Shown here: in pieces, positions 412-36,741 of the stretch
Layout: every line of letters starts with the position of its first letter
Numbering within the stretch: the stretch's first letter is position 1
Source of the DNA: a bacterium
GTDB taxonomy: Bacteria; Hinthialibacterota; Hinthialibacteria; Hinthialibacterales; Hinthialibacteraceae
DNA length: 64,000 nucleotides
Direction: 5' to 3'
Assembly (NCBI GenBank): GCA_963662285.2
Contig: CAXXMV010000001.1
Coordinates: 256,001 to 320,000, forward strand
Made by a program: the position numbers and the translations under genes
The notes under the pieces: generated by a model
The model's input: only the letters and a program-made list of their open reading frames with translations
What the model was told of the DNA's origin: nothing
Databases searched by the model: none

Positions 412-1854
412 TCAATGATTCATCCAATCATGGATTGCAGAAGGAATCGGTGTTGGTTTTGGGAATTCTGGATCGTAAAAGAACAATCGATTTAATTTGT
501 ATTCATCATTTTCTGTTACGAAAATAATATCTCCATATCCATTGCCGTTACTATCTCCTAAAATAGGACGTCCAGAGATGCGTCCAGGAATCTTGAACCT
601 TGAAGGGAAAATGAGCGGGTCTAAGTTTTCGTTTAAAAAATGAATATAATCGGAATCATTAACAGTTTGAATCACCGCCAAATCCGGCCCTGGTTCAGAA
701 AACAGTAAAATACTCCCAATAAGAGTGTTGGATTCTTGGATCGTAAATATCCGGCCACGATTCTGTGATATATCCAATCGATATAGGTTACCCTCTCCGT
801 CAAGAAGCACGATTTCACTCTCCATATCATCATCTAATTCAGGTACGGCTAAATCGACGCAATCCCCCTCAAGTTCTATTTCCTGGAGTAAACGTCCATT
901 GAAAGCAGAAAAAACAGTAACAGAAGGTGGAATATAGAGAGAAGGATTTTTCCGTGCTTTCGTTCCAGCGATAATCAAAGTTTCCTCATAATCAGATTGT
1001 CCTATCGCTAAACGGGATAATTCGAGATTTGGATTGATCGGAATCGACCATAATTCTTCTGGAGATAACGTTTCAGCATTAAGCCTGTATGAGTGAATGT
1101 ACGATAAATCGCTTTCTGCGGTTGATTGGATAATGGGATTTGAAGCAATATACGCATACCAGGATTCATCAAACTCGTCCCATATGAAAGCCATTAAACG
1201 AGTCGTAGAGGTTCCTGGAAATTCAATCTTCCTCGAAGAGGAGGATTTTCGATCGTAAACGGATAGAACGCCTTTAAGTGAGTCAACTGCTCCATAACAT
1301 AAGAATTCTTGATTCCCATCTGAATCAATATCGATAGCCGCACAAATTTTCTCATTGAGTATGCTTTGAGATGAATCAAAATTCCAAATAAATTGTTTTG
1401 TTAAGTAACTGTAGATAAAATGCCTTGAATGGCCATTCTCATTGATGACCGAGAAAAGAATCTCTTTAACCGAATCACCATCAATATCTGCTAATGAAGC
1501 GAGATAGACGGCTTCATTTGTCTCTCGGACGACGGGTACAGTCTCAATTGAATGATTGTTAAAGTCAATAATGAGAATTCCTGAACCATCGCTTTTTTGA
1601 ACAACAATTTCTTGTAAGCCGTTATGGTTTAAATCGCCGCAAATAAGATTTTCGATATCGGAAGGGATCGGTATCGATTCTATATCAATGATTTTTTGGA
1701 TCGTGCGGTCCTTGTTGTCTAGATGTACGAAAGCGTTGGCCTTTAAATTAGCGTATGGATATGACCAATCGTTGTTTCCATAAAGTGGAAACGAAAAGAA
1801 AATACATATAAAGACAAATAGAATTGAATTTCTCAATGGATTAACGCCTGCCAA
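412..1854 (-). CDS. Secreted FG-GAP/VCBS-like beta-propeller protein with C-terminal sorting-like motif
   Basis: Hydrophobic N-terminus; repeated DxDxDG-type Ca loops (GDLNHNGLQEI, ADIDGDSVKEI, IDIDSDGNQEF, GDSNGNGYGDI); ends PKPTPIP-SAIHDWMNH. Confidence 0.75.
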   Translation of the reverse strand: MAGVNPLRNSILFVFICIFFSFPLYGNNDWSYPYANLKANAFVHLDNKDRTIQKIIDIESIPIPSDIENLICGDLNHNGLQEIVVQKSDGSGILIIDFNNHSIETVPVVRETNEAVYLASLADIDGDSVKEILFSVINENGHSRHFIYSYLTKQFIWNFDSSQSILNEKICAAIDIDSDGNQEFLCYGAVDSLKGVLSVYDRKSSSSRKIEFPGTSTTRLMAFIWDEFDESWYAYIASNPIIQSTAESDLSYIHSYRLNAETLSPEELWSIPINPNLELSRLAIGQSDYEETLIIAGTKARKNPSLYIPPSVTVFSAFNGRLLQEIELEGDCVDLAVPELDDDMESEIVLLDGEGNLYRLDISQNRGRIFTIQESNTLIGSILLFSEPGPDLAVIQTVNDSDYIHFLNENLDPLIFPSRFKIPGRISGRPILGDSNGNGYGDIIFVTENDEYKLNRLFFYDPEFPKPTPIPSAIHDWMNH

Positions 1855-1949
1855 TTTACTTATTTGATCTTATAATTATATCGCAAATGGAACGCGAGTT
1901 GGGCATTAAATATACAGCGATTTGAATGTAGAATTCAATCGCAAGTATA

Positions 1950-3530
1950 TTGGGGATAAGGAGAAATATCAAAAGAATGAAGAAACGGTCATTGAGTTTC
2001 CTGGTTGAAATATTGTTTGTTTTGGTATTCGTTGGAATAAATCAAATCAATTCATCTGCTCAATCGTGGCCATTCCGCAATGGGGATTCTTCCAATACGA
2101 GGAATTTCCAAACAGTAAAGCCTCTGCTTGTGGGAGATAAGATAACAGCAAAGAAACTTCTTCTTCCATGGGAAATTCAAGGTTTTTTATTATCCGGTGA
2201 TGTAGATGGAACGGGCCGAATCAGCCTCGTATCGTCATTTCAATCTCCACCTTCCGTTGCGATCTATGATCCCATCTCGCTCGCATCGCGTTTAATTCCG
2301 ATTAGTGAGAATCCTTATACGAATGATTACGTATCTCCATACAATCTACTGGATACGGACGGGGAGCCTGGATTGGAAATCCTGACAGTTATCACGCCTA
2401 ATTCCGTTCCATCTTATGGGGAAGGAGTTCCGACTCTATACCAAGTGGTTTCAGGGAAGCAAAATCTCGTACTCAACCAATTCATGGGCATGGTGGGTGA
2501 AGATCAAAATGGAGACGGTGTATGGAGCGGCCGGGAAAGCCCTGAACTTATGTTTGTGGATGAAAAAGGAAAGGTAAAAATCCTTGCGCATATCGATGCA
2601 GGGCATGAAGATTACAAACCTCGGGCCATAAATATTTATGATGTTGAGTCGGGAAAAATTGACGCTCAATTTCACATGGCGACTCCACCAACAGGCATCT
2701 CATTCTTTCAAGATCCTTCATTAGGCAAATATATCTTTACGGCTCCCCTGACACCCGATAATTGGATTCGAGTCAATGGTGAAAAGATAATTGATTCTGA
2801 AGGTAATTACATTAATGTGAGCGAGGACCTGGATGGGCTTACTGTCTCAGACAAGGAAGCCTATGACGTCTGCTTGAAATTAGAAACGGATTCGGAGCAA
2901 GCATATTCACTAGATCTTCAGTGGTATTTAAAGCGGGGCGAATATATGTCGGGCTCATCATTGATTTCCCGGACAGAGGATAATCGCCTTGTTGTTATAT
3001 CCTGGGATACAATGATCCGCTCCTACGATGCGATTTCACCTGGAGGAATTCATGTTTACGACCTCAAAACCGGTGAAATCGTTAAGGAGTTTTATTTAGG
3101 TGAAGAAATCTCTTTTAGAGATGTGTTAAAGATAAATAATTCAAACACTCTTTATGGATTCCATCTTGAAGAAAAATCAGTCACTAAATTCGACTTAGAT
3201 GAAGAAGGACCAAGCAAAACAATTGATTTTAACGATGAACCAACAGTAACGCTTTCCGCATTAGGGGTAGCTGATATGGATGGAGACGGCTCAATTGAAA
3301 TATTGATTGCAAAAAAGAAACCGGAAGAAACCGTAATGTTCGTCTATGATGAAAACCTTGTTGAAAAAGACTCTTTAAACGTTCCTCCCTTCAATCAATA
3401 CTGCTTCGCCGATGCAAACCTGGACGGACTCCCTGAGATTTACATGCTCGATCAAATTAATAATAAAGAACTTACGGTTGTTGAATATGAATCTTCGTCT
3501 TTCGTCAGTGATTACATAAAATACGATTAA
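1950..3530 (+). CDS. Secreted FG-GAP-repeat protein with C-terminal sorting-like motif (likely start ATG 1977)
   Basis: Signal peptide MKKRSLSFLVEILFVLVFVG..SSA; GDVDGTG, DTDGEPGLEI, ADMDGDGSIEI, ADANLDGLPEI loops; ends SFVSDYIKYD. Confidence 0.75.
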   Translation: MGIRRNIKRMKKRSLSFLVEILFVLVFVGINQINSSAQSWPFRNGDSSNTRNFQTVKPLLVGDKITAKKLLLPWEIQGFLLSGDVDGTGRISLVSSFQSPPSVAIYDPISLASRLIPISENPYTNDYVSPYNLLDTDGEPGLEILTVITPNSVPSYGEGVPTLYQVVSGKQNLVLNQFMGMVGEDQNGDGVWSGRESPELMFVDEKGKVKILAHIDAGHEDYKPRAINIYDVESGKIDAQFHMATPPTGISFFQDPSLGKYIFTAPLTPDNWIRVNGEKIIDSEGNYINVSEDLDGLTVSDKEAYDVCLKLETDSEQAYSLDLQWYLKRGEYMSGSSLISRTEDNRLVVISWDTMIRSYDAISPGGIHVYDLKTGEIVKEFYLGEEISFRDVLKINNSNTLYGFHLEEKSVTKFDLDEEGPSKTIDFNDEPTVTLSALGVADMDGDGSIEILIAKKKPEETVMFVYDENLVEKDSLNVPPFNQYCFADANLDGLPEIYMLDQINNKELTVVEYESSSFVSDYIKYD

Positions 3531-3668: not shown

Positions 3669-6600
3669 TTGGAGAAAAAAATGTGTAACAGGATTCTTGT
3701 GTTATTATGTGTTTTTTTAAATTGTAGTTATTCGTCAGAATATTATTCTTATGGGCCTCCAGTAAAGTTCCCATCATCAAGTCATAATGATTCAATAAAT
3801 TCTGTTAATTATTCTCCAGATGGAAATTTTGTAATTACAGGAAGTGAAGATAAAACCGCTATTTTATGGGAAATCTCTACTGGAAGAGTAATACATACTT
3901 TTTCTGGGCATAAAGAAAGAATCAATTCAGTCGCTTTTTCACCTGATGGACAGACAGTATTCACAGGTAGTGATGATACAATAAAAAAATGGGATGTATT
4001 AACTGGAAAAGAAATTCAAACGTTAGAGTTAAATAAATGGATTCAAACTTTTTCACCGCAGGGTAGTCAGTTTTTAACAGGTCGTTATTCTGAAAATTTG
4101 GAAATCTGGGATTCATTGTCCAATAGTAAAATTGCATCTTTTGATGCTTCTTTAGATGGGTTTGGTCATACAATCTATACAGCTGCTTTTTTACCAAATG
4201 AAAAACAAATAGCATTTGTTAGTGAAAATAGTCATGGGGGAATAGTAAGATTTTGGAATATTGACACCAATAGTGAAATTTGTACTTTCTATCCTGCTTC
4301 TTATGCGCACAATGAAACCATAACCGATATTGCGTTCTCTTCTGATAGCAAAAAAATCATTACAGGGAGTGATGATCAAACAGCAAAAATATTGGATATT
4401 GAAACGAATGAAATTGGTAATATATTTATGAGAGAAAAATTGACTCTAATTGGACATAGTGAGCCAATAACATCTGTTGGTCTTTCACCGGACGGAAAAT
4501 ATGCTCTTACAGGGAGTCAACACTACGCAAAATTATGGGATGCAATAACTGGTGAAGAATTACATACATTTCATGGATATGAGTTTAAATCAATTATTTT
4601 TGGTAAAAATGGAAACAGTGTTTTAGTAGGAAATGAAAATACCGCATTCTTATTGGACTTAGATTCAAAAAAGAAGATTCAAGTATTTGGTGCTGATGCA
4701 TATTCAGAAGTAATATCACCTAGTGGTGAATTCATTGTATCATTTGGAAATTATTCAACAAGACTTTGGGAGATTGAGACTGGTTCCGTAATACGAATTT
4801 TTTCTGGGCATAATGATGGTGTGTATTCAGCAGCATTTTCACCGGATGGTAATCACATTTTAACAGGGAGTTATGATGATACAGCAAAATTGTGGGATGT
4901 AACCTCTGGTACAGAAATTCGAACATTTACTGGGCATAACGATGATATTCGATCTGTCGCTTTTTCTCCAGATGGTAATAAAATATTAACAGGAAGTTGG
5001 GATAAAACAGCAAAGTTATGGGATGTTTCCTCTGGCAACGAATTACAATCTTTCTCTGGTCATACTGATGGCATAACATCGGTAGATTTTTCTCCTGATG
5101 GAAAACAAATTGCAACAGGAAGTTGGGATAAAACAGCGAAATTATGGGATCTGGCTACCGGAAAAGAAATATTCACGTTCCAAGGTCATAACAAGTATAT
5201 AGATTCTGTAGAATTCTCTCCAGATGGGAATTATTTATTAACTGCAAGTGGAGATAGGTCAGCAAAATTGTGGGATATATCTACTGGAATAGAATTATTA
5301 ACCATATCAGGTTGTGATGGGAAAGCTACATTTTCACCGGATGGAGAAAAAATTTTGACACAGGATGGTAAACTTTGGAAAGCATCTACTGGTTGTAAAT
5401 TTGGATCTAGATTAGGATCTTATCCCTATGGCGGTGAATTCTCACCTGATGGGAATTATATTATTGCCACTTCACAGTACCAAGTCTTATTATGGGATAT
5501 TTCAACATATGGTAATGAACAAAAATCCATTGGAGGTAATAATAGTTATATATACACAGTTGCATATTCATCCGATGGAAAGCGTGTGGCAACAGGAGGA
5601 TATGATAATAGAGCAATAGTATGGGATGTGGAAGCAGGATCTGTGTTATGCGAATATTCAGATAAAGGATACATCAATTCGTTATCATTTTCTCCAGATA
5701 GTGAACAATTATTGATAGGTAGTGAAGATGGAACTGTCAAATTGTTAGATGCAATAACTGGTAAAGAATTGTATCGCTATCAAGATATTGATGACCCAGT
5801 CAATTCTGTTGCATTTTCACCAGATGGAACAAAAGTATTGGTAGGCAGTGATGATAATACAGCAATAATGTGGGATGTAAATACTGGTTTAAGACTGCAT
5901 ACTTTTTCTGGTCATGAGGGAACTGTGCATTCAGTTATATTTTCGCCAGATAGCAATTATATACTAACTGGGAGTGAAGATGGAACAGCAAAATTGTGGG
6001 ATATAGTATCTGGATTGAACATAAAAACGTTTATTGGTCATGAAAGTGGTGTTACATCTGTTGCCTTTTCTCCAGATCGTAAACAAATTGTAACCGGAAG
6101 TTGGGATGATACTGCAAAATTATGGGATGTGATTACAGGTAATGTATTAAAAACTTTCTCAGGACATAAAAGTAATGTGAATTCAGTCGCTTTTTCTCCA
6201 AATGGTAAATATATTCTCACAGGGAGTTGGGATTACACCGCAAAATTATGGGATATAAACACAGGAATGGAACTCCAGGAATTCTCGGGACATACAGCTG
6301 AAATAAAGTCAGTTGCATTTTCTCCTGATGGAAATAGTGTCCTAACGGGCAGCAGGGATTTTTCGGCAAAGTTATGGGATGTAAATACAGGAGAAGAATT
6401 AAAAACATTCTCAGGGCAAAAACTTGAAATCTCATTACTTTCTTTTTCAAATGATAGCAGCATTTTGTTTTCTAGTGATTTTAGTACAGCAAAATTATGG
6501 GATGTAAACACAGGAGGGGAGTTATATACATTTAACAATTTTCATAATAATGAAGGAATGTCATTAGATGGAAGTAGAATTTTACAAAAGACTCCGGAGG

Positions 6601-7034
6601 GTACGATTAACATGCTGGATTCGACAACAAATGAGGTTCTACATGTATTTTCTGATCCAGAAAAAGTACATAATTCTACAATTTTATCACCTGATGGTAC
6701 AAGAATATTAACAATAGACGGTAAATATAAAGATGCCATAACAGATGAAATTTTATTCTCTATTCCTGCTTTTTCATCTGCTTCTTTTTATCCAAAAGGT
6801 GAAGCATTCTTAACTAGTCACACTATTATGGCAAAATTATGGAATATGTATAACGGAGAGGAACTCCTTACTTATACAGGGTTTTACTCAACGGGTAATG
6901 CTCTTGCATTTTCTCAAGATGGAAAATTATTAGCAACTTCAGATAAGCGTAGGATTGTTCTTTGGGAGTTAAATGGATGGATTCAAGAAATCACACCTCC
7001 AGATACAAAAATAGATGATTGGGCAATATATTAA
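3669..7034 (+). CDS. Secreted multi-WD40-repeat protein (several propellers; likely start ATG 3681)
   Basis: Many GH..V.SVAFSPDG..ILTGS.D.TAKLWD repeats; N-terminal hydrophobic segment; GGAG before ATG 3681; ends PPD-TKIDDWAIY. Confidence 0.92.
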   Translation: MEKKMCNRILVLLCVFLNCSYSSEYYSYGPPVKFPSSSHNDSINSVNYSPDGNFVITGSEDKTAILWEISTGRVIHTFSGHKERINSVAFSPDGQTVFTGSDDTIKKWDVLTGKEIQTLELNKWIQTFSPQGSQFLTGRYSENLEIWDSLSNSKIASFDASLDGFGHTIYTAAFLPNEKQIAFVSENSHGGIVRFWNIDTNSEICTFYPASYAHNETITDIAFSSDSKKIITGSDDQTAKILDIETNEIGNIFMREKLTLIGHSEPITSVGLSPDGKYALTGSQHYAKLWDAITGEELHTFHGYEFKSIIFGKNGNSVLVGNENTAFLLDLDSKKKIQVFGADAYSEVISPSGEFIVSFGNYSTRLWEIETGSVIRIFSGHNDGVYSAAFSPDGNHILTGSYDDTAKLWDVTSGTEIRTFTGHNDDIRSVAFSPDGNKILTGSWDKTAKLWDVSSGNELQSFSGHTDGITSVDFSPDGKQIATGSWDKTAKLWDLATGKEIFTFQGHNKYIDSVEFSPDGNYLLTASGDRSAKLWDISTGIELLTISGCDGKATFSPDGEKILTQDGKLWKASTGCKFGSRLGSYPYGGEFSPDGNYIIATSQYQVLLWDISTYGNEQKSIGGNNSYIYTVAYSSDGKRVATGGYDNRAIVWDVEAGSVLCEYSDKGYINSLSFSPDSEQLLIGSEDGTVKLLDAITGKELYRYQDIDDPVNSVAFSPDGTKVLVGSDDNTAIMWDVNTGLRLHTFSGHEGTVHSVIFSPDSNYILTGSEDGTAKLWDIVSGLNIKTFIGHESGVTSVAFSPDRKQIVTGSWDDTAKLWDVITGNVLKTFSGHKSNVNSVAFSPNGKYILTGSWDYTAKLWDINTGMELQEFSGHTAEIKSVAFSPDGNSVLTGSRDFSAKLWDVNTGEELKTFSGQKLEISLLSFSNDSSILFSSDFSTAKLWDVNTGGELYTFNNFHNNEGMSLDGSRILQKTPEGTINMLDSTTNEVLHVFSDPEKVHNSTILSPDGTRILTIDGKYKDAITDEILFSIPAFSSASFYPKGEAFLTSHTIMAKLWNMYNGEELLTYTGFYSTGNALAFSQDGKLLATSDKRRIVLWELNGWIQEITPPDTKIDDWAIY

Positions 7035-27846: not shown

Positions 27847-29472
27847 TTATTTATCGTTCCCATTTGAGACGCTGCTTCCGCCCGGTGTGATTTGACTGAC
27901 TAATTGGCCGACTTGATTGAGAACGGGCATACTCTCCAGATCAAGTTTCGGATAAACCGGTCCCGGATTTTCGGATTCTTCATCATCCACAACCGGTAAC
28001 TGAGATTGTTCCTGCTTCTTGGGCAAGCGCTCTGATGGATTCTTCTCCGGATATTCACGGTACGGTGTTTTTCCGATTTGATTGATCAAAGACACGGCGG
28101 CTTGTTCCATCTGATTGATAACGCCTTTCGCTTTCCGTGAAAGAAAAGCATGCAGTAAAAGAGATGGAATCGCTACAATCAAACCGAATTCCGTTGTTAT
28201 AAGCGCCTCGGAAATTCCTCCGGATAGAGTTTTTACATCTCCCGAACCAAAGACGGTAATCAGTTTGAAGGTATTGATGATCCCGGTGACAGTACCCAGC
28301 AGTCCAAGTAACGGAGCGGATGCGGCACTGATGGCAATAAAGGGAAGAAAACTGTCCAGTTTCAGACGGGCGGCCAAAACTCGTTCGTACATGATTTCTT
28401 CAATCAATTCGCGCGGTTCCTTGAGATGTTCGACACCGGCCTGCAGCATTCTGCCAACCGGGCCTTTGATTGCTTTGGCATTTTCTACAGCGGCCTTTTT
28501 ATCATGTGTTGCGATTGCGTCAAGCAGCGCTTGAATGCGTTTTTGAGACGGTTTGCGTATAAACAACATCCCCAGCCATTTAAACAAAGCCACAAGGAAG
28601 GCCGCGCCGGCCAAGGCAAAGATCGGGTACATAACCACACCGCCTTTTTTGACATGGGCGAGAAAGGATTCCTGGGTTTCTTCAATTTTATGCGCATTGC
28701 CGAGGGTTGGATCGAGAAGAAAAGCGCCACCGTTACCTGAAATCAATTGAGCCGCAACATCTGCATCTTCAGGCGCGCCAAAAGGAATCACTGCCGGTTC
28801 CAGCGATCCCAGGCGTTGTTCAGCCGTTCCTATAATTTCACCGTCGTTGGACTGAAAAAGCGCGGCCGGACCTGCCAATACAAACGTTCCCGGTTTTACA
28901 ATTCCATTGGGATCGACCGCCGTGCCTTCAAAACGGGCTCCTCCCAACGCATCGTCCAACCGCTCAATGGCTGTTTCAAGAAGACCGGCTTGTGCCTTGA
29001 AAACTTCCTGCCCGGAGAGATTGCTGTTTTCTGTCGCTAATTTCGCTGCCATCAAGGGTTCTTGATAACGGCCCACCTCCGCGATATGCAGGCGGGATTC
29101 AAAATTACGGACATAATCACTCAGTAAATTAGTCAGGTAGGATGATTCTTGCTGACGGGATTTAATTTCCGTTCGCAGATTGCTTAAATCGAGAGCCCGG
29201 CTATCCAGCAGGCGGGTCGTATCTTGATATTTCTGGCGAACATCGGTGAGTTCCTTCTCTAACTCACTCAGTTTGCGGCTTAGCGGAATCGTTTCCCGGG
29301 CGGCTTGTTCGCGCAACTGATTGAGTTCGGCGACACTCTCAACGAGCCTTTGCTGGAATGATTGAGCGGCCTCCCCAAATGCATTTTCATTGGATTGGGC
29401 CGCATCTTGCGCGCTTGCCGTAAACGCAATGATGAGAGAGCCAAGCAGGATAAGTATTGTTTCTGTTTTCAT
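27847..29472 (-). CDS. Long ExbB-family protein with periplasmic coiled coil (TtpC-like)
   Basis: Signal peptide, coiled coil, LDPTLG, GGVVMYPI, APLLGLLGTVTGIINTF..GGISEALITTEFGL. Confidence 0.88.
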   Translation of the reverse strand: MKTETILILLGSLIIAFTASAQDAAQSNENAFGEAAQSFQQRLVESVAELNQLREQAARETIPLSRKLSELEKELTDVRQKYQDTTRLLDSRALDLSNLRTEIKSRQQESSYLTNLLSDYVRNFESRLHIAEVGRYQEPLMAAKLATENSNLSGQEVFKAQAGLLETAIERLDDALGGARFEGTAVDPNGIVKPGTFVLAGPAALFQSNDGEIIGTAEQRLGSLEPAVIPFGAPEDADVAAQLISGNGGAFLLDPTLGNAHKIEETQESFLAHVKKGGVVMYPIFALAGAAFLVALFKWLGMLFIRKPSQKRIQALLDAIATHDKKAAVENAKAIKGPVGRMLQAGVEHLKEPRELIEEIMYERVLAARLKLDSFLPFIAISAASAPLLGLLGTVTGIINTFKLITVFGSGDVKTLSGGISEALITTEFGLIVAIPSLLLHAFLSRKAKGVINQMEQAAVSLINQIGKTPYREYPEKNPSERLPKKQEQSQLPVVDDEESENPGPVYPKLDLESMPVLNQVGQLVSQITPGGSSVSNGNDK

Positions 29473-29488
29473 GATAATCCCGTGTTAT

Positions 29489-30334
29489 TTATTTGATTTC
29501 GATGGGCAACCGGACAAAAGAGGCTACTTGTTCGTTTTTCAAAATAGAAATGGCCTTCGCGATTTCCCCGGCGGCATCGTTTGCGGGTTTCCATGCCCAA
29601 CCCTCTTCTGAAACGGTTCCTATTCCCGCAATCGTTCCATTTGCACCAGAGTAGTACCCCTGCCCGAGACCGAGATAGAGCGCGGTCACTTCCGCGGATG
29701 TGCCATCCGGCAACATACGTACCTCGCTGACAATCCGGATGTCCCGGTTGAATTTACCGATCTCATTGAGAATCCCGACAACATTTTGGAAACGTTCAGA
29801 AATTGTGAGTTTGGTTTCTTCCGCGCGGTCCGGCAAACGTTGGCTCAGAGGTTTGATATGCTCCCGAATAGGATCGGGAAGCCGTGTCAATAATTTTATT
29901 GTGTTCTCTTCCAACGAAGTACAGACGCCAACGAGCTCGATGGAAACCTCTTTAAGCAAATCGTTCTCTTGAATCAAATCAGCCCGCTTTTTATCGGCTT
30001 CCGCAATGCTCTTTTCCGCATCGGTAATCTTTTCCAGAAGTGATTGAATCTCCCGCCGGACCAATTCTATTCTCTCATTGAGCATTTCCTTGGATAGTTC
30101 CAGGTCACGCTTTTCCTTCGAAATAACGCGCTGAGTCTCCACCCATTTTTCCAATGCGGTACGAGTCTCTTCAATCGTCCCGGCGGTTTTGTCATCCGTT
30201 ACAGCCGCGCAAGGTATAAAAACAACCATCCAGACAAGAAAGACCGCTCCTGCCAACAGACGGTGATGAATGATTTCAAGCGATAGAATCCAGCGTGCAG
30301 CCCGGTATTCCCCATCTTGTGTTATACGTTTCAT
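29489..30334 (-). CDS. DUF3450-family coiled-coil protein (TtpB-like)
   Basis: Coiled coil, SERFQNV, V.ALYLGLGQGYY, W.W; canonical position before the long ExbB. Confidence 0.8.
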   Translation of the reverse strand: MKRITQDGEYRAARWILSLEIIHHRLLAGAVFLVWMVVFIPCAAVTDDKTAGTIEETRTALEKWVETQRVISKEKRDLELSKEMLNERIELVRREIQSLLEKITDAEKSIAEADKKRADLIQENDLLKEVSIELVGVCTSLEENTIKLLTRLPDPIREHIKPLSQRLPDRAEETKLTISERFQNVVGILNEIGKFNRDIRIVSEVRMLPDGTSAEVTALYLGLGQGYYSGANGTIAGIGTVSEEGWAWKPANDAAGEIAKAISILKNEQVASFVRLPIEIK

Positions 30335-30458
30335 AATCCGGTGATCCTTTTTATCATTACTATTGGTTATCTGTTTTCATCGCGACAAAATGCATGTCTT
30401 TCATTGTGAACACGGCATACATGAACATGTATAATGTATCCATTAAATATAAGGATTC

Positions 30459-30672
30459 TGTTAGTGATATGTTTTTCTATTGTTACCTGCAGATTAGCGG
30501 AGAAGGTCTGATTTTTTTTTCTATACAATACTTGCTCACACAATCTACAATCAATCCGAATCACAACAACCTATTCATCTCATTTTGGTTACTATCTATT
30601 CAGATACTCTGTATATAGCAGCTGGTCATTTGGGCATTCCATTATGTTAGTTTTGTGTTAAGGAACTGTTTA
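30459..30672 (-). promoter_or_regulatory. Two arrays of PhoB/PhoP-box-like direct repeats, 11-bp period
   Basis: Plus strand TGTTAG 30459, TGTTTT 30470, TGTTAC 30481; TGTTAG 30645, TGTTAA 30656, TGTTTA 30667. Confidence 0.55.
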
Positions 30673-33657
30673 GAAAGTTGCACTCACGGATAGCGAAAAC
30701 TCAATCCCTTTTTTATAGGATGTTTTCAAAACATCACCACCGATGTATTCGGAACGGTAAACGGATTCAATGGCGGGATTGAGTAAATTCTTGGCTTGAA
30801 ACTTGAGTTTCCAGTTCTTTCCAAAACTTTGAGTTGCGCTTAGATTGAGTGTTCCATACTCGGTCTCATAAACACTGGGTACGAACTTGCCATCCGCCTG
30901 ACCGGCGCCAGCCACCAGCGTGTCTCCCCGCACGGTATAAAAAAGACCGGCTTGTGTACCTTTCATTCCCAAATCCGTCAGGTCGTACATGAGAAAGAAA
31001 TTGTAGAGATATTCGGGCGCATTGGTCATATCTCTTGTAGGCATGGGAGCCATGATATTCGGTTCTTTCAACTGTGCGGCTTCGAAATCCGGAAGCGTCA
31101 CTTCGGAATCAATAAATGTTGCATTGGCCCCAATTGAAAGGCCATTGAGTGTATCCCAAATTTGCCCCATTTTCTGACGGATTTCGATCTCGTACCCGCT
31201 CAGTTTCCCTTCGGGATAGTTCACCGGCGTTGTATAACCAAAATCGGCGATCCGTTGCACGTATTCGATTGGATCCTGGATGTCTTTATAGAAAAAGGAT
31301 AAGGAAATCAATCCTCCTTCATAGGGTGTATAATCAGTCCGGATATCGTAGTTCTTCAAGGCGCTCATCTTAAGGAATGGATTACCGATAAACACATCTC
31401 CGCCCAGAAATTCCTGCTGCTGAATCGGCGTGAGTTCCTTGAACGTCTGACGGGCAATCGTTTGGCTGTACGAACCATGCAGTTTGATTTGATCGATGGG
31501 CGTCATAACAAATCCCAGTGAAGGCAGCATGTCGTTTTGTGTATAGTCGACATCTGCTTGCCCCGGTTTCAATTCAACCGAACCGGGAGATCCAGGCGGA
31601 ATCCAGGTCACCTCGTCCTCCGGAAAATTCTCGATGCCGATATCCGTCTTTTCGTGCCGGACTCCGCCGATGAACTTGAATCTCGAGTTCAATGGTAAAT
31701 CCGTCATATAATACCAGGCCGTAATATCCTGTTCGCCCTTGTAATCCACATCGATTTCGGCGGCCGTTACAGGATGATTTTCCGACGGGAAAACACCACT
31801 CCAATAGTCATCCCAATAACTTTCGCATTGAGCGCTGTTATCATTGAAATTACTAAAGGAATCCTGATTGTACTGACGGTCAACCCGGTCGCTGAAATGC
31901 CCGAATTTCAGATATCCCTTATCTCCGGTCCATTGTTCGAACGGGAATTTCAGATCGAAATAATATTGATTGCTATCCTCGGATATATCTTTCCAGATTC
32001 GCTGAAGATTCCCCAGAGTATAATTAGCGGCCGGTTTAAAAGGCCGGAACACTGCCGGTTCCGTGAAAGGATCGATATAAGGCGGGTATCCCGGATTGTT
32101 GGATTCCGCACACCACATCGAACCAAATTGCCTCTTGTCGGGCTGATAGAGTCCGGACGAATTGACAGAGAATCCCCAATCCACTTCAGGTTTGAGAGAG
32201 GTTAAGAAATGATTTATTTCCAGGCCCGGATCGGGCAGTTTATGCTGGCCGCTTAATTGCATCGTTTGCGTGGTCCGTTCGGTATACTGAAGGGTTTCCG
32301 TTCTTAGATACGGCGCGGCGTCACGCTCGCGATTCCCTGGATCACTGGGATCGTCCGGATCGTAACCGGGAAAATAATAGGCTTTCCCTCGTGTATCTTC
32401 AGCCAAAGTTGCAACATCCTCCGCCGCACGGGTATACAATGTTGTCAAACTTAGAGAATGATTTTCGGTTTCAATCCCCACGGTTCCCAATCCGCCCCAC
32501 TTAACCTCTTCCGCCCCTTGAGTCACATCAAAGAGTTGCGTCTTAAAATCCCCCTGCATCGGTGTTCCCTGGATATACTGGGGAGACATGAAACCGCCCG
32601 GTTCTTCAACCCAGTATTTATCATTGATGCCATTGTCAAAAAAGGAACTGTCCCGTTCATAAAAGAAACTGGCCAGGCCGCCCAGAGTGAAACCGGCATC
32701 AAATTCATGTTTTCCGCCGGCCGCCAGCGACCATTTATAATCGATGGGCGCACCCTCCGGCGCAACTCCCACAGTGCGGTCGAAATTCCCGTCCGAAGGG
32801 ATATCCCGTTCGTCATCCCCCAGCAAACTGACTCCGCCGCCATCATATAAAAGGAAATCATCATTCCCGGTTACTTGCGAATTGTAACTGAGTTGACTGT
32901 CCAATTTAAAAACGGTTTCATTCGGAATTCCTTTCAGCACAACATTGACGGCTCCGCCGGAGGCATCGCCCTGTTGATCCGGTAAAAACGTTTTACTGAC
33001 TTGAATGCTTTCGATTGCAGCGGAAGGAAATTGATCCAACTGAACGGCGCGCTTATCGGCATCGGCAGTGGGCAAACGTACGCCATTCATTTGTGAATTG
33101 ACATACCGGTCCGGCAACCCGCGAATGACGGCGTATTTGCCGTCTTGAACAGATGCTCCCGCAACCAGTTTTAAAGCGCTGGCGGCATCACCCGCGCCGG
33201 CCTGGCTCATTAGATCGGCGCTAATCGAATCCATTAACGTCGGACTTTCCATACGCAGTTCAAGCAGAGCCGCTTCCGTTCCTGTGCCGATCTGAATGTC
33301 TTGAACGATAAATTCCTCCATATCCGTAAAATCACCGGCCAGCCACACATCGAGTTCGGTCATTTTGCCCGGTGAAACAACCACATTGGCTTTCACCTGT
33401 CGGATATACCCATCCTTCGAATAAATCAGTGTATAATTGCCAGCCGGAACTTGGTTGAAAACATAATTCCCTTCGTCTGCACTTTCGGTTTTTTCTCCAG
33501 TTTCCGCGATCGAGATTTCCGCCCCCCCCAACGGCGCATCGAAATCCTTATCGTAGATTGTCCCCCGGATACTGCCGACCTGCTGCGCTAAAACAAGTGA
33601 AACTGATAAAAAGGATATACAAGCAAAAATCCAAAAACAAAAAATATGTTTTACCAT
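30670..33657 (-). CDS. TonB-dependent outer-membrane receptor with N-terminal carboxypeptidase-regulatory-like domain
   Basis: Signal peptide; plug motifs IRGLPDRY..MNG.., LDQFPSAAIESIQVSKT..GDASGGAVN; GNP.LK; C-terminal AKNLLN...FSLSVSATF with terminal Phe. Confidence 0.95.
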   Translation of the reverse strand: MVKHIFCFWIFACISFLSVSLVLAQQVGSIRGTIYDKDFDAPLGGAEISIAETGEKTESADEGNYVFNQVPAGNYTLIYSKDGYIRQVKANVVVSPGKMTELDVWLAGDFTDMEEFIVQDIQIGTGTEAALLELRMESPTLMDSISADLMSQAGAGDAASALKLVAGASVQDGKYAVIRGLPDRYVNSQMNGVRLPTADADKRAVQLDQFPSAAIESIQVSKTFLPDQQGDASGGAVNVVLKGIPNETVFKLDSQLSYNSQVTGNDDFLLYDGGGVSLLGDDERDIPSDGNFDRTVGVAPEGAPIDYKWSLAAGGKHEFDAGFTLGGLASFFYERDSSFFDNGINDKYWVEEPGGFMSPQYIQGTPMQGDFKTQLFDVTQGAEEVKWGGLGTVGIETENHSLSLTTLYTRAAEDVATLAEDTRGKAYYFPGYDPDDPSDPGNRERDAAPYLRTETLQYTERTTQTMQLSGQHKLPDPGLEINHFLTSLKPEVDWGFSVNSSGLYQPDKRQFGSMWCAESNNPGYPPYIDPFTEPAVFRPFKPAANYTLGNLQRIWKDISEDSNQYYFDLKFPFEQWTGDKGYLKFGHFSDRVDRQYNQDSFSNFNDNSAQCESYWDDYWSGVFPSENHPVTAAEIDVDYKGEQDITAWYYMTDLPLNSRFKFIGGVRHEKTDIGIENFPEDEVTWIPPGSPGSVELKPGQADVDYTQNDMLPSLGFVMTPIDQIKLHGSYSQTIARQTFKELTPIQQQEFLGGDVFIGNPFLKMSALKNYDIRTDYTPYEGGLISLSFFYKDIQDPIEYVQRIADFGYTTPVNYPEGKLSGYEIEIRQKMGQIWDTLNGLSIGANATFIDSEVTLPDFEAAQLKEPNIMAPMPTRDMTNAPEYLYNFFLMYDLTDLGMKGTQAGLFYTVRGDTLVAGAGQADGKFVPSVYETEYGTLNLSATQSFGKNWKLKFQAKNLLNPAIESVYRSEYIGGDVLKTSYKKGIEFSLSVSATF

Positions 33658-35012
33658 GGTTGGCCTAGCCCCCCATATATCTGCAGCATTTGTTCCCAGA
33701 GTTCCGCATCGGGTTCACAATTGGACAGAATCATCGAGCAGCAAGCGGCGGACAGGTCTTCAGCCCGTGGCCTGGAATTAGGATTCGCAATCCCTTCTTG
33801 TACGGATTTCTTATAGACGGCCAGCGCGGATTCTTTATCTCCCATCATCTGATAGGCTTCCGCAAGCGGACGAAGCGCTCCAGCCCGCCAAATATTGACT
33901 ATTTTCATTCCCTGTTCGTTATAGAGAGCCAATGCGGCATCCGCATCAGAACGAGATTTCTTTCGGTCACCCGCCCGGTAGCGCAGTTTTATGATCTTAG
34001 CCATCAGGGGAAAACGGTGTTCCAATTTCCATTGGTACTTATCGATAAAATTTTGGGCTTGGTTGATTAGTTTCAGGGCTTTCTCCCGATCCGAATTTTC
34101 CAATGCAAATTCCGCTAGTTTTTCCAACCAATCGATTCGGATATTTACGGGAATCGTATCCCAAGAAGCCGTGATTTTATCTTCGATAACTGCGCGTTTT
34201 TCTGTATCCTTATAAAAGCGGTCAAACAACTGAACGTACGCTTCCAAAGCGTGTTTGACGATGTCAAAATCCCCTTTTGCAATATACGAATCGAGCGTTT
34301 TGACTTGATCCTCAAACGATTCCTCATCGCAAAGCATGGCCTGAACATATTCCACCTTGCCCGATTCAGATGCAACAACATTCGAGGCAAACTGGCGAGC
34401 TTTTTGAGTTTGTCCCAGCCAGGTATGAGCTTGCGCGATCTTGATCCGTATCCGGTCTCTGCGCCAATCCTCAGCGTCTTTGGCTATCGGTTCCGCTATA
34501 TCAGAAAAATACTGCATAGAGTCAATATCACCCTGCCGGGCACAGTAATAAGCCAGATTGGCGTAACACATTCCTTTTCGCCAATTTTCGATTTTTTCTA
34601 TAAACATCATGGCCTGCTTTGGCTGACCGAGTTCCAGGCAAGCATCGACCACTTTTTCCTGCGCTCTCGACCGGTCTGTGATATGGGGAGAAACTGGGAT
34701 GGAGGAAGCCGCGTTAAACGCCAGATTCAACAATTTGACTTGCGAGTCTCTCAGAGGCTTATCTTCAAGAGGGCCTTTTGTATTTTCCGCGAAAACTTTC
34801 GTCTCCATGAAGATACCATATCCGGTGATCGATAAAATCAACGCTGCGCCTATTAACGGAAAGACAAAAAAGGGAATGCTTTTTTTTTGAGGGGACCACA
34901 ATTTCATTTCCATGAAAAAATCCTTATACGGTTTATACGTCTTAGATAACTCAACTTTCATTATTCGGGTGGAAATGGCATGAAACGGAACTCCCGGATA
35001 CATGGGAATCAT
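33651..35012 (-). CDS. Alpha-helical/TPR-like protein with N-terminal membrane segment (start probably near 34913)
   Basis: TM FFVFPLIGAALILSITGYGIF followed by helical repeats. Confidence 0.7.
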   Translation of the reverse strand: MIPMYPGVPFHAISTRIMKVELSKTYKPYKDFFMEMKLWSPQKKSIPFFVFPLIGAALILSITGYGIFMETKVFAENTKGPLEDKPLRDSQVKLLNLAFNAASSIPVSPHITDRSRAQEKVVDACLELGQPKQAMMFIEKIENWRKGMCYANLAYYCARQGDIDSMQYFSDIAEPIAKDAEDWRRDRIRIKIAQAHTWLGQTQKARQFASNVVASESGKVEYVQAMLCDEESFEDQVKTLDSYIAKGDFDIVKHALEAYVQLFDRFYKDTEKRAVIEDKITASWDTIPVNIRIDWLEKLAEFALENSDREKALKLINQAQNFIDKYQWKLEHRFPLMAKIIKLRYRAGDRKKSRSDADAALALYNEQGMKIVNIWRAGALRPLAEAYQMMGDKESALAVYKKSVQEGIANPNSRPRAEDLSAACCSMILSNCEPDAELWEQMLQIYGGLGQPW

Positions 35013-35133
35013 GCGGAATTGTTCTTTTGAAAGAGGAAAGCGAACGAATGCCAGCGCTGTTCGAAGCCAGCATCCATTCGCAATGTACTCGTAAGAAATC
35101 TGAATAATGAATAGTAATGCAGATAATCTTCAC

Positions 35134-36741
35134 TTAATACAATTCGTAATTTGAAACGTTGGAAGCGGAACCTTCGGTCATGCCATAAGCATGAACGGCC
35201 GTCCAGCCAGCCAGCCAGTTATTCGAATCATCAAATCCGCCGCGGTATTGCGCGGATTGGAAAAATCCATCAGCCGGAGCTGCTGCAACGCTGGTTAAGG
35301 CGTCGTTGTTCGCCAGAGGATTGATGGAAACAACCGGAATCATTTGTTTCCCGCCTTTGGTTACGAGATCACCGCGAACCAGCCCTTGGATCGGCATGAT
35401 TTCGGCGGTTATGTTGTTGTTCTCCGCATTGCGGACACCACGGGCATCGGCTTCCGTATAGGCGTCAGCGTGAAGGTTGTTATAGAAAACCGTATCTGTG
35501 ATTTCACACAGTTTTCCGGATGTTTGCACTGTGTAGAGAGCGGCTGCATCGGCCTGACCAAGATTGATTGCGGATGTATAGGTGTAATCCGTTGTCCAGC
35601 AATCTTCCCAGGGAAGCGTGCCATTGTAACCATATCCATTGGCGCCATCGCCATCATCTCCATCGAATCGGACCAGTTTTTCACCGAGATCCATGAAGAT
35701 GCAGTTGCGGTATTGAACGTGAGCGTTATCCCGCCAGGTTGTCCCGCCGTCACCGTCAATCGGCTGGCCGACAACGGTAAAGTTATAAATCGAAGCCGTT
35801 GTAATAGGCTGGGCATCGGAATCTTCCGCGCCGTCTGTTTCGAAGCAATTATCGCCAACACCAGAACCTTGGCTGGCATCCAGACTGTAACCTTGAACGA
35901 TCAATCCGAATTGAGCCTTGCCGCGCCAGCCTTCATCGATATCGAAACTGTCGTCGCCAACGTTCCAAATGTTTACATATTTCAAGTTGACTGTTCCGCC
36001 CCAGATTTCGATTCCATCGTCAACATTGTTCATGATTTCAACATGATCGATTGTCGTGCCACGGCCGAGACCACCCAACGACAAACCGTTCAATTCGTTT
36101 GCCAAACCTAAAACCTTGCCGCCATACCGGATAGAAAGATAATGAATGGAACCGCTATTGTCATCATCATCATCTCCGCCATAGAAAACCTTGGTGTCAT
36201 TCTCATCCGCCGCAACAAGACCTTCCATTTGTTTCACATTCAGTCCAGTCGGTTCTTTCGTATTGCTGCCGACTTGCTGGCCTTTGTAGTGCGAAGCGGA
36301 AACCAGGGCATTCCCCATTATCGTAAGGTTGCCCCACTCGTTAGCGCCTTCATGCCATGATGTCAAATCATCATTCGAAGACGTCATGATAACGGGGTCG
36401 TTTTGAATCCCGTTCACATAAATCTTGGCGCCCCGGCAAACCGCTAAACTTCCTCCAACTCCGGCAGTGCTTTGAACCAATGTCCCGGCCTCAATCGTCA
36501 AAGTTGCTCCAGGCAGAACATAAATCTGATCCTGCAGGTTGTATACATTATCGGATGTCCATGTTACGGATGTGTCAATATCCTCCGTTACCAATACTTC
36601 TGCCGCGAAGGCAGATCCGGTGATTGCCATACAGAACGCTGCAACCAATGATAGATTGACTGTTACTTTTCTCATGCTGAGATTACCCTTTCTTCGAGTT
36701 TGGGGGATTCTATGGAATGTAAACATAGTTTCAATACCCAA
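35134..36741 (-). CDS. Secreted acidic beta-helix-type protein of a family usually beside TonB-dependent receptors; carries the C-terminal motif
   Basis: Signal peptide ..GSAFA; GATLTIEAGT, WGNLTIMGNA, YGG.DDDDNSG.I.Y.SIRYGG, ELNGLSLGGLG.GT, DDGIEIWGGTVN, DDSFDIDEGW; ends GSA-SNVSNYELY. Confidence 0.8.
   Translation of the reverse strand: MGIETMFTFHRIPQTRRKGNLSMRKVTVNLSLVAAFCMAITGSAFAAEVLVTEDIDTSVTWTSDNVYNLQDQIYVLPGATLTIEAGTLVQSTAGVGGSLAVCRGAKIYVNGIQNDPVIMTSSNDDLTSWHEGANEWGNLTIMGNALVSASHYKGQQVGSNTKEPTGLNVKQMEGLVAADENDTKVFYGGDDDDDNSGSIHYLSIRYGGKVLGLANELNGLSLGGLGRGTTIDHVEIMNNVDDGIEIWGGTVNLKYVNIWNVGDDSFDIDEGWRGKAQFGLIVQGYSLDASQGSGVGDNCFETDGAEDSDAQPITTASIYNFTVVGQPIDGDGGTTWRDNAHVQYRNCIFMDLGEKLVRFDGDDGDGANGYGYNGTLPWEDCWTTDYTYTSAINLGQADAAALYTVQTSGKLCEITDTVFYNNLHADAYTEADARGVRNAENNNITAEIMPIQGLVRGDLVTKGGKQMIPVVSINPLANNDALTSVAAAPADGFFQSAQYRGGFDDSNNWLAGWTAVHAYGMTEGSASNVSNYELY

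What the first reader, a model, noticed from the sequence alone, without database searches (positions are those of the whole stretch)
412..36741. Shared 9-residue C-terminal tag on five unrelated secreted proteins: candidate new protein-sorting/secretion signal
Seen: five proteins with different folds, all with N-terminal signal peptides, end in the same pattern: SAIHDWMNH* (412..1854), SFVSDYIKY-D* (1950..3530), TKIDDWAIY* (3669..7034), TDVKNWEIY* (12232..14766), SNVSNYELY* (35134..36741). Consensus [ST]-x-[VI]-x-[DN]-[WY]-x-x-[YH]-COOH, usually after a P/S/T-rich spacer. I saw it on no cytoplasmic or inner-membrane protein here, nor on the TonB periplasmic parts. Known: it has no TM helix or basic tail (unlike LPXTG, PEP-CTERM, GlyGly-CTERM), is far shorter than the ~70-aa T9SS CTD, and sits on non-barrel proteins, so it is not a normal Bam beta-signal. 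Inference: a lineage-specific export or surface-anchoring signal read by an unidentified translocon or transpeptidase. The machinery is not identifiable in this window.
Basis: partly seen in the sequence, partly recalled or inferred. Interest (0 to 1): 0.9.

Follow-up and report, generated by a model that had tools for sequence, protein, structure and literature searches.

The report
Short tryptophan tail on exported proteins
About 200 unrelated exported proteins of this uncultured bacterium, and many in a second uncultured phylum, end in the same nine-residue tryptophan-containing tail, which looks like an undescribed address or docking label whose reader is still unknown.

Summary
P0002 carries only a degenerate version.

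**How common it is.** The tail T-x-V-x-[DN]-W-x-[LI]-[YFH]-COOH ends 198 of about 5,173 ORFs in this genome. About 0.24 would be expected by chance. It sits almost only on proteins with a signal peptide, and their bodies fall into 97 unrelated sequence clusters.

**Structure.** In two AlphaFold models the tail is a low-confidence extension beyond the fold.

**Orthologues.** In one conserved protein family the tail occupies the place that other lineages fill with dockerin-like or other C-terminal modules, or leave empty.

**Distribution.** A DNA pattern for tail plus stop hits 34 of 35 genomes of the window's phylum, probably Hinthialibacterota/OLB16. New here: it also hits 35 of 75 genomes of a second phylum, labelled Sumerlaeota in public records.

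**Known systems.**
- No Pfam or NCBIfam model covers the tail.
- No sortase, exosortase or PEP-CTERM was found.
- No T9SS part was found either, but the controls for that search were blind.

**Neighbours.** Tagged genes lie next to GspG-like prepilin genes more often than other exported genes do, in both phyla.

None of the five candidate readers I profiled follows the tail across genomes.

**Best reading.** This is a post-Sec sorting or docking label. The scan has noted the same tail before on other DNA (e1-4719819, e1-5096131, e1-4588147).

The parts
412..1854 (-). P0001, exported FG-GAP repeat protein (480 aa as listed) ending PSAIHDWMNH. The tail is coded at 415-441 and the stop at 412-414.
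   Evidence: Translation. Pfam FG-GAP_3 at 3.1e-9. PSSM 19.3.
1950..3530 (+). P0002, exported protein with a weak FG-GAP hit, ending SFVSDYIKYD. This is a degenerate or variant tail (Y for W, K for L, one extra D), coded at 3498-3527.
   Evidence: Translation. PSSM -1.5. Orthologue endings.
3669..7034 (+). P0003, exported 1,121-aa WD40 repeat protein ending TKIDDWAIY. The tail is coded at 7005-7031.
   Evidence: Translation. Pfam WD40 at 1.5e-184. PSSM 21.7.
12232..14766 (+). P0004, exported 844-aa protein with a P/T linker and an fn3-like region, ending TDVKNWEIY. The tail is coded at 14737-14763.
   Evidence: Translation. PSSM 25.0. The DNA pattern match at G000:C1:270737-270766 equals window 14737-14766.
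35134..36675 (-). P0005/P0006, exported beta-helix protein (PF28492 family, 513 aa from the likely Met) ending SNVSNYELY, with Y in place of W. The tail is coded at 35137-35163. It is the first gene of a cluster holding a TPR protein, a TonB-dependent receptor, DUF3450, ExbB, ExbB, ExbD, TonB and another TPR protein.
   Evidence: PSSM 19.6. AF2 model with tail residues 503-513 at pLDDT below 50.
24545..35012 (-). Context of P0005, not tagged. It holds a TPR protein (33651-35012), the genome's only BLAST-detectable TonB-dependent receptor (30670-33657), DUF3450, two MotA/ExbB genes, ExbD, TonB and a TPR protein.
   Evidence: Pfam. BLAST of the receptor against the genome's ORFs.

Best explanation
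The tail [ST]-x-[VI]-x-[DN]-[W>F,Y]-x-[LIM]-[Y>F,H], at or within one residue of the C-terminus, is a short linear recognition motif added as a flexible extension to Sec-exported proteins.

It most likely acts after signal-peptide cleavage as an address or docking label. A shared, still unidentified envelope component would bind the exposed tail and either hold the protein at the outer face of the cell or hand it to the outer-membrane export route. That route is probably a type II secretion-type machine, to judge from the GspG-like prepilin genes next to many tagged genes.

**Shown:**
- the motif, its enrichment and its restriction to exported proteins;
- its modularity, and its exchange with other C-terminal modules in orthologues;
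- its disorder in models;
- its presence in two phyla;
- its mismatch with all known sorting-signal architectures.

**Inferred:** that it is read in trans, where the proteins end up, the route, and whether the tail is kept or removed.
For: **1. Far above chance, and on exported proteins.**
- 198 tails against about 0.24 expected.
- 0 of 12,000 internal 12-mers reach 6 bits.
- Odds ratio 14.7 with a crude signal-peptide call.

**2. Modular.**
- The 198 bodies fall into 97 BLAST clusters, 74 of them singletons.
- Of 59 tagged proteins sampled, 31 have no Pfam family. The rest are typical surface or extracellular types: CBM9 x6, CotH/LTD x3, beta-helix x3, Peripla_BP_6 x3, LRR x2, four peptidase families, an MtrC-like multihaem cytochrome, LamG and WD40.

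**3. Conserved at the protein level within one orthologous family.** In 19 aligned orthologues the Trp is invariant, while the residues around it vary.

**4. Not part of the fold.**
- Two AF2 models have mean pLDDT 87 and 75.
- The last regular element ends before the tail in both.

**5. Swap evidence.** PF28492 orthologues at 65-87% identity all end their body at ...AYGMT[DE]. What follows differs by lineage:
- Hinthialibacter-like ones add the tail.
- Others add a W-x-[EQ]-[LM]-[KN] sister tail.
- Others add a dockerin-like GDLNGDGxVD module; Pfam Dockerin_1 hits P0053 and P0054.
- Others add an unnamed domain of about 70 aa.
- Others add nothing.

**6. Phyletic spread.** The pattern hits 34 of 35 genomes of the window's phylum and 35 of 75 of a second phylum. 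The reversed-pattern control gives 1 hit in each set. Real signal-peptide proteins carry the tail in the second phylum: 24 ORFs in 20 loci.

**7. Prepilin neighbours.**
- 27 of 198 tagged genes have a GspG-like prepilin gene immediately adjacent. The figure is 71 of 1,330 for other signal-peptide genes (odds ratio 2.8, p 6e-5) and 114 of 3,525 for the remaining genes.
- 25 of 29 pairs are on the same strand, and some overlap.
- The same adjacency is seen in 7 of 20 tail loci of the second phylum.

**8. No known sorting enzyme found in this genome.** Sortase, exosortase and PEP-CTERM were not found. SprA_N and the T9SS CTD were also not found, but the controls did not ring for the last two or for PEP-CTERM.
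Against: **No reader found.** Across the 75 genomes of the second phylum, none of five candidates follows the tail:
- Prepilin N-termini give 28-94 matches in all 75.
- One GspD type scores best in genomes with no pattern hit.
- The other GspD type is present in 57 of 75 regardless of the tail.
- A cohesin-domain protein is present in 67 of 75 regardless.
- A secreted tricorn-type S41 protease is present in 15 of 75 and missing from many tail-rich genomes.

The same pilin family also occurs in zero-hit genomes.

**These profiles are soft evidence.** A zero-hit genome (G077) carries the variant tail ...SNVSDWDMMN on its PF28492 orthologue, so the DNA pattern undercounts.

**Other weaknesses.**
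- Only 14% of tagged genes have a prepilin neighbour.
- In the one family examined, the prepilin partner was adjacent on the same strand in 7 of 20 loci.
- Location, cleavage and binding are all untested.
- My signal-peptide call is a crude hydrophobicity rule, not SignalP.
- About one tail in five carries one extra residue, and two orthologues carry 4-6 extra. A strict free-carboxylate reader fits poorly.
Confidence: 0.55

Rival explanations
1. The tail is specifically a type II secretion signal. It would be bound by the pseudopilus (one of about 120 GspG-like paralogues), by a GspC-like adaptor or by the secretin vestibule, so that folded cargo is pushed through a secretin.
For: - Prepilin genes are the most enriched neighbours of tagged genes: 30 of 91, 13 of 44 and 12 of 26 members of three pilin families are neighbours, against a background of 12.6%.
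- 27 of 198 tagged genes against 71 of 1,330 other signal-peptide genes have an adjacent prepilin gene.
- The same adjacency holds in the second phylum, in 7 of 20 loci.
- The genome has three T2SS-like clusters and eight secretin genes.
- No T9SS or T1SS-type signal is seen on these proteins.
- An MtrC-like cytochrome, a class exported by T2SS in Shewanella (recalled), is among the tagged proteins.
Against: - Prepilin expansion and the same pilin family occur in every genome of the second phylum, with or without pattern hits.
- Neither GspD type tested follows the tail.
- No tagged gene lies beside any of the eight secretin genes.
- 86% of tagged genes have no adjacent prepilin gene.
- Known T2SS signals are conformational, not linear (recalled).
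Confidence: 0.2
2. The tail is a ligand for a PDZ or tail-specific protease. It would mark exported proteins for C-terminal processing, or act as a periplasmic quality-control or stress-sensing signal, as OMP YxF C-termini do for DegS.
For: - The motif is C-terminal with an aromatic last residue. 148 of the 198 tagged ORFs end in Y, F or H.
- The genome encodes a CtpA-like S41/PDZ protease and two or three signal-peptide-bearing tricorn-type S41 proteases with PDZ domains.
- All four S41 genes lie within three genes of a tagged gene. This was noticed post hoc; roughly one gene in five would do so by chance.
Against: - About 20% of tails carry an extra residue, and some orthologues carry 4-6 extra. 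This blocks a classical carboxylate-binding PDZ mode.
- The tricorn-type protease is present in only 15 of 75 genomes of the second phylum and is absent from many tail-rich ones.
- The conserved part reaches nine residues upstream (T, V, D/N, W), longer than usual PDZ ligands.
- A degron on 4% of all genes, exchanged with dockerin-like modules in orthologues, is hard to rationalise.
Confidence: 0.1
3. The tail works in cis or between copies. It would be a small structural or oligomerisation element, or a direct membrane or glycan anchor through W, L and Y, and no dedicated protein reader would exist.
For: - No reader was found after five profile tests.
- The aromatic and hydrophobic W-x-L-Y end could sit at a membrane interface (inference).
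Against: - The tail is low-confidence and unpacked in two unrelated models.
- Nine residues with conserved polar positions (T at -9, D/N at -5) look like a protein-recognised motif.
- It occurs on 97 unrelated body clusters.
Confidence: 0.08
4. The pattern is chance, a compositional artefact or a repeated DNA segment at gene ends.
For: None beyond the weak fifth example, P0002.
Against: - 198 observed against about 0.24 expected.
- The reversed-pattern control gives 1 hit per phylum set.
- Codons differ between tails.
- The tail is conserved in orthologues across genera.
Confidence: 0.01

Closest known systems
Tripartite C-terminal sorting signals and their enzymes (LPXTG/sortase, PEP-CTERM/exosortase, GlyGly-CTERM/rhombosortase, MYXO-CTERM/myxosortase)
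   Same: - Many-to-one logic: one short C-terminal tag on dozens to hundreds of unrelated signal-peptide proteins in a genome.
- Lineage-restricted distribution.
- The tag is found on typical surface and extracellular proteins.
   Different: - There is no hydrophobic helix and no basic cluster after the motif; the protein simply ends.
- No sortase or exosortase was detected in the genome.
- No PEP-CTERM domain was found, but that control was blind.
- No NCBIfam or Pfam model hits the tail.
T9SS C-terminal domains (type A TIGR04183/PF18962, type B)
   Same: A C-terminal address on Sec-exported, folded, often carbohydrate-active or adhesin-like proteins. LTD/CotH and CBM cargo resemble T9SS cargo (recalled).
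   Different: - The T9SS CTD is a folded beta-sandwich of 70-100 aa; this tail is 9 residues and disordered in models.
- No CTD or SprA_N match was found (controls did not ring, so absence is not proven).
Dockerin-cohesin docking
   Same: - In PF28492 orthologues the tail sits where other lineages carry dockerin-like modules.
- Cargo includes many carbohydrate-binding proteins.
   Different: - A dockerin is a Ca-binding module of about 60 aa; the tail has no EF-hand motif.
- Only 5 proteins in this genome end with a dockerin-like motif.
- The one cohesin-domain protein tested does not follow the tail.
OMP beta-signal, and YxF C-termini read by BamA/BamD or the DegS PDZ domain
   Same: An aromatic residue at or near the very C-terminus of an exported protein.
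   Different: - Tail carriers are soluble-type folds, not barrels.
- The hydrophobic pattern is not alternating.
- The genome's own TonB-dependent receptor ends ...FSLSVSATF, unlike the tail.
Cargo carried by type IV filament subunits (T2SS pseudopilus; archaeal bindosome; PilY1 on minor pilins). All recalled, not tested.
   Same: Tagged genes are often co-oriented and adjacent to GspG-like prepilin genes, in two phyla.
   Different: No evidence of contact. The prepilin family is equally expanded where the tail pattern is not found.

Membership tests
LPXTG / sortase | LPXTG-like motif followed by a hydrophobic helix and a basic tail, with a sortase encoded in the genome | tested here: not met
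   The tails end the protein with no helix or basic cluster. No PF04203 match in G000 (92.5% complete), and the control rang in 3 genomes.
PEP-CTERM / exosortase | PEP motif plus TM helix plus Arg-rich end, with an EpsH-type exosortase | tested here: not met
   No such architecture in the tails. No PF09721 match; the control rang once. No TIGR02595 match among 67 candidates, but that control did not ring.
GlyGly-CTERM / rhombosortase and Cys-containing CTERM signals (MYXO-CTERM etc.) | Gly-Gly or invariant Cys motif plus TM helix plus basic end, with a dedicated rhomboid or CPBP-type enzyme | tested here: not met
   The tail logo has no GG or Cys position and no TM segment. The enzymes were not searched.
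T9SS CTD | Folded C-terminal domain of about 70-100 aa matching TIGR04183/TIGR04131, with T9SS core genes (SprA/Sov, PorV, GldKLMN) | tested here: not met
   The tail is 9 aa and has low pLDDT. No TIGR04183 hit on the five proteins or in the genome, with 10 candidates scored. No SprA_N. Both genome searches had blind controls, so absence of the machinery is not proven.
OMP beta-signal (BAM substrate) | The last strand of a beta-barrel, with alternating hydrophobic residues and a terminal aromatic | tested here: not met
   Carriers are propellers, beta-helices, CBM9, PBP-type and other soluble folds. The tail lies outside the fold. The genome's TBDR has a different, classical ending.
Dockerin | Duplicated Ca-binding EF-hand-like segment (Pfam PF00404), with cohesin partners | tested here: not met
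   No Dockerin_1 hit on the five window proteins or on the 59 sampled tagged proteins. The tail has no D-x-D/N-x-D/N-G motif.
PDZ-binding C-terminal motif | The last 3-5 residues with a free carboxylate are bound in a PDZ groove | tested here: inconclusive
   155 tails end exactly at the aromatic residue, 39 have one extra residue and 1 has two. Orthologues with 4-6 extra residues exist. PDZ and S41 proteins are present.

The most novel reading that the evidence does not exclude
The tail is the address label of a previously unknown post-Sec sorting pathway shared by two uncultured phyla. A dedicated receptor would read a nine-residue linear C-terminal motif on folded proteins. It would then either dock them on the cell surface or load them onto a type II secretion-type machine, perhaps through the greatly expanded GspG-like pseudopilin paralogues encoded next to many cargo genes. 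This would be the first linear, transplantable C-terminal signal for that kind of export or display in diderm bacteria.
Probability: 0.35. Interest if true: 0.9.

Novelty: categorically new. Interest (0 to 1): 0.75.

Why it matters
All well-described prokaryotic C-terminal sorting signals are either tripartite (motif, helix, basic end, cut by a membrane enzyme) or folded domains (T9SS CTD, dockerin). A nine-residue, helix-free tail on about 4% of a genome's proteins, kept across two phyla, points to a sorting or docking mechanism that is not in the catalogues.

It would have three uses:
- A simple sequence rule for predicting the surface and secreted proteome of Hinthialibacterota and Sumerlaeota. 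These organisms are known only from metagenomes and are thought to degrade complex polysaccharides (PMC9324843, passages read).
- A handle for finding the machinery, through peptide pull-downs and phylogenetic profiling.
- Possibly a small portable tag for protein display.

Tried and rejected
**1. Complex prediction.** I sent one translationally coupled pair: tagged protein residues 28-445 with its adjacent prepilin residues 41-239, both as alignments. The score was 0.07 against a mark of 0.32. The verdict was 'no answer', so this is no evidence either way.

**2. Phylogenetic profiles over the 75 genomes of the second phylum.** I tested prepilin N_methyl, GspD of cluster L003, GspD of cluster L005, a cohesin-domain protein beside a TPR-secretin and a secreted tricorn-type S41 protease. 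None follows the tail. These tests are weakened because the strict DNA pattern misses variant tails.

**3. Beta-signal mimicry.** Rejected. The TBDR ends ...SVSATF.

**4. Tagged genes beside secretin genes.** None was found in seven 20-kb loci holding the eight secretin genes.

**5. A recurrent alternative tail next to prepilin genes in zero-hit genomes.** None was seen among 20 neighbours. One reads ..GRTWNLYE.

**6. Dockerins as the main system in this genome.** Only 5 C-terminal dockerin-like motifs were found.

**7. Whole-collection scan with a strict tail pattern.**
I corrected it and it was accepted.
- It returned 37 loci.
- Single hits in Photobacterium (3), Flavobacteriaceae (2), other Bacteroidota, Fibrobacter, a spirochaete and an archaeon are within the chance expectation of about 69.
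- I do not count them as carriers.

**8. Literature.** I found nothing on this tail, but PubMed-only and subscription papers were not searchable.
- 'Hinthialibacter': 7 papers listed. I read passages of PMC9324843, which has 0 occurrences of 'secretion' or 'sorting'.
- 'C-terminal' / 'sorting signal' / 'Sumerlaeota': no listed paper holds all three terms (listing only).
- Pseudopilin / Planctomycetes / expansion / secreted (listing only).
- 'Sumerlaea' plus 'secretion': 10 papers (listing only).


Full report
**Observation.** All five have hydrophobic N-termini. Their bodies are unrelated: FG-GAP, a weak FG-GAP hit, a 1,121-aa WD40 array, an fn3-like protein and a beta-helix protein. No Pfam or NCBIfam model covers the last residues.

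**Is it more than chance?** I laid the whole genome: 7.29 Mb in 8 contigs, with the window at C1:256001-320000.
Nearly all show visible signal peptides.
- The same regex occurs 36 times in 2.41 million internal positions. That predicts 0.24 hits at the C-terminus.
- A PSSM iterated from these seeds converges on 195 ORFs at 10 bits or more, 198 at 8 or more and 206 at 6 or more.
- None of 12,000 random internal 12-mers reaches 6 bits.

The logo, counted over the 195 ORFs at 10 bits or more, reads as follows.

| Position | Residues (count) |
|---|---|
| -9 | T 121, S 32, V 30 |
| -7 | V 139, I 43 |
| -5 | D 68, N 45, E 27 |
| -4 | W 175, F 14, Y 5 |
| -2 | L 119, I 41 |
| -1 | Y 113, F 40, H 26 |

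155 tails sit at the exact end and 39 carry one extra residue.

In a crude non-overlapping gene set, the tagged ORFs are 198 of 5,173. The PSSM scores four window proteins at 19-25 bits and P0002 at -1.5. P0002's orthologues end in degenerate versions of the same tail, so it is a decayed member. The tails use different codons (listing), so this is selection on the peptide and not a DNA repeat.

**Who carries it.**
- 171 of 197 tagged ORFs pass a crude signal-peptide rule, against 1,551 of 5,015 untagged ORFs (odds ratio 14.7, p 2e-57). Most of the 26 failures have an obvious hydrophobic N-terminus or a doubtful start.
- With the tail removed, the 198 bodies fall into 97 BLAST clusters. 74 are singletons and one single-linkage cluster has 58 members.
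- I sampled 59 tagged proteins, chosen from the 20 regions densest in tagged genes. 31 have no Pfam family.
- The rest are CBM9 (6), Peripla_BP_6 (3), CotH/LTD (3), beta-helix (3), LRR (2), peptidases S8/S9/S15/M12, a beta-lactamase-fold protein, an MtrC-like multihaem cytochrome, LamG, WD40, Kelch and DUF3160.
- Not every exported protein is tagged. Window 7293-8429 and 8456-12235 are not.

**Is it part of the fold?** No, in the two cases tested.
- An AF2 model of a 445-aa propeller-type tagged protein, built from 19 orthologues, has mean pLDDT 87.3. Its last strand ends at residue 434 and residues 440-445 fall below pLDDT 50.
- The model of P0005/P0006, built from 35 sequences, has mean pLDDT 75.3. 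Residues 503-513 fall below pLDDT 50.
- In the 19-orthologue alignment the tail Trp is invariant while neighbouring residues drift.

**Swap evidence.** P0005 belongs to a very conserved family. Its precomputed Pfam label is PF28492, which is not in the local Pfam copy. There are 2,355 hits, and the best 120 are 63-100% identical. All bodies end at ...NWLxGWTAxxAYGMT. What follows differs by lineage:
- The closest relatives add the tail, with F or Y in place of W. One of them is named 'Candidatus Hinthialibacter sp.' by NCBI.
- A second set adds a related ending, ..[DN]-W-x-[EQ]-[LM]-[KN].
- Sequences named Phycisphaerae, Sedimentisphaerales or Planctomycetota add a GDLNGDGxVD...W module or nothing.
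- Others add a domain of about 70 aa ending FYRAI.

Pfam finds Dockerin_1 in two of the longer forms. One of these (P0054) also ends in the tail.

Within the second phylum the orthologue shows the same kind of variety:
- G077 and G078 carry a variant tail (..VSDW[AD][LM]MN).
- G043 carries an Asp/Gly-rich repeat region after a Pro/Thr linker.
- G103 carries an unnamed 70-aa domain.
- G083 carries another domain.

The tail therefore behaves as one of several interchangeable C-terminal localisation modules.

**Distribution.**
- A DNA pattern for T-x-V-x-[DN]-W-x-Φ-[YF]-stop is expected about 0.04 times per genome.
- It hits 34 of 35 genomes of the window's phylum. The own genome has 32 hits, family f1 has 4-18 each, and other families have 0-14.
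- The reversed-pattern control hits once.
- The pattern also admits TGG in place of a stop, and the single G001 match is of that kind. H-terminal and other variants are missed, so counts are lower bounds.
- The phylum name Hinthialibacterota/OLB16 comes from an earlier scan note and from the NCBI name on the best homologue. I did not place the genome phylogenetically.
- A stricter pattern scanned over 185,579 species genomes gave 37 loci.
- In the phylum of one of these (75 genomes), the looser pattern hits 35 genomes. 18 have three or more hits, the maximum is 13, and 40 have none. The control hits once.
- In 20 loci from two tail-rich genomes of that phylum I found 24 signal-peptide ORFs ending ..T-x-V-x-D-W-x-[LIM]-[YF].

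The tail is thus shared by two phyla.

**Machinery.**
- Not found in this genome: sortase, exosortase and PEP-CTERM, and SprA_N and the T9SS CTD. The controls were blind for the last two and for PEP-CTERM.
- The genome has eight secretin genes. They sit in three T2SS-like clusters, one Tad cluster, two T4P-like clusters and one pair of short secretins. No tagged gene lies beside them.
- The most enriched neighbours of tagged genes are GspG-like prepilin genes. About 120 are found by N-terminal motif, and they form three BLAST families of 91, 44 and 26.
- 27 of 198 tagged genes have one immediately adjacent. The figures are 71 of 1,330 for other signal-peptide genes and 114 of 3,525 for the rest.
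- 25 of 29 pairs are co-oriented, and some overlap.
- The adjacency recurs in the second phylum in 7 of 20 loci.
- It is partly conserved for one orthologous pair: 7 of 20 loci on the same strand within 1.5 kb.
- This link is not specific. Every one of the 75 second-phylum genomes has 28-94 prepilin matches, and the same pilin family occurs in zero-hit genomes.
- Two GspD types, a cohesin-domain protein and a secreted tricorn-type S41 protease also fail to follow the tail.
- The tail/no-tail classes are soft, because variant tails escape the pattern. These negatives lower the odds for each candidate but do not exclude it.

**Conclusion.** The interpretation as a sorting or anchoring signal is the best available reading, but it rests on inference.

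I found no description of this tail in the searchable literature or in the Pfam and NCBIfam scans of the five window proteins. The same tail had been noted by this scan on another piece of this genome and on two other genomes. New here are its presence in a second phylum, the prepilin-gene adjacency in both phyla, the two structure models and the five failed reader candidates.

Noticed in passing
G000 genome-wide; e.g. L008:2203-2922, L012:5343-5930, L013:6935-7561: The genome holds about 120 GspG-like prepilin genes of roughly 200 aa. They share a near-identical N-terminal helix and a conserved ..LTTPVxYMSSIPxDPF..SxGPD..SNGLxSxGDI scaffold. The same expansion (28-94 N_methyl matches) is present in all 75 genomes of the Sumerlaeota-labelled phylum.
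   Followed up: partly
window 24545-36741: BLAST with the window's TonB-dependent receptor finds no clear second receptor in the genome; the only other hit has E 4e-4. The receptor sits in a cluster of PF28492 protein, TPR, TBDR, DUF3450, ExbB, ExbB, ExbD, TonB and TPR. The PF28492 protein is 65-87% identical across several phyla.
   Followed up: partly
window 1-20600: This is a low-GC stretch (0.32-0.41 per gene, against 0.44 for the genome). It holds four of the tagged genes. It is followed by an Orc1/Cdc6-like AAA+ gene (16391-17653; Cdc6_C at 1.5e-21) and an ISL3 transposase (19314-20606). A phage-type integrase (41916-42995) and a DUF3987 protein (38069-40303) lie further on.
   Followed up: no
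G000 C8:1515351-1518944, C6:1222502-1225843, C3:150324-153512: These are two or three tricorn-type S41 proteases (beta-propellers, Tricorn_C1, PDZ_Tricorn, S41). At least two have clear N-terminal signal peptides, which suggests they are exported. All four S41 genes of the genome lie within three genes of a tagged gene.
   Followed up: partly
G000, tagged ORFs genome-wide: A small residue followed by Gln ([AGS]-Q), typical of a signal-peptidase site followed by Gln, occurs at residues 16-50 in 53% of tagged ORFs. The figure for other signal-peptide ORFs is 29%. This may point to N-terminal pyroglutamate, as in Bacteroidota (recalled).
   Followed up: no
L001:8049-10765 (G000 C1:564048-566764): In one T2SS-like cluster the secretin is split into two ORFs. 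One holds N0 and Secretin_N x3 (485 aa) and the other holds the secretin domain (414 aa). This may be a frameshift or a real split.
   Followed up: no
window 3669-7034 and L023:12787-14733: Large WD40 repeat arrays (1,121 and 648 aa) carry signal peptides and the tail. They are exported WD40 proteins, which is unusual for bacteria.
   Followed up: no
P0016, P0020, P0024, P0028, P0030, P0110 (homologues of P0005): A related 'sister' ending..[DN]-W-x-[EQ]-[LM]-[KN]-COOH, occurs on orthologues from other metagenomic lineages. Only one such ending was found among the untagged ORFs of G000.
   Followed up: partly
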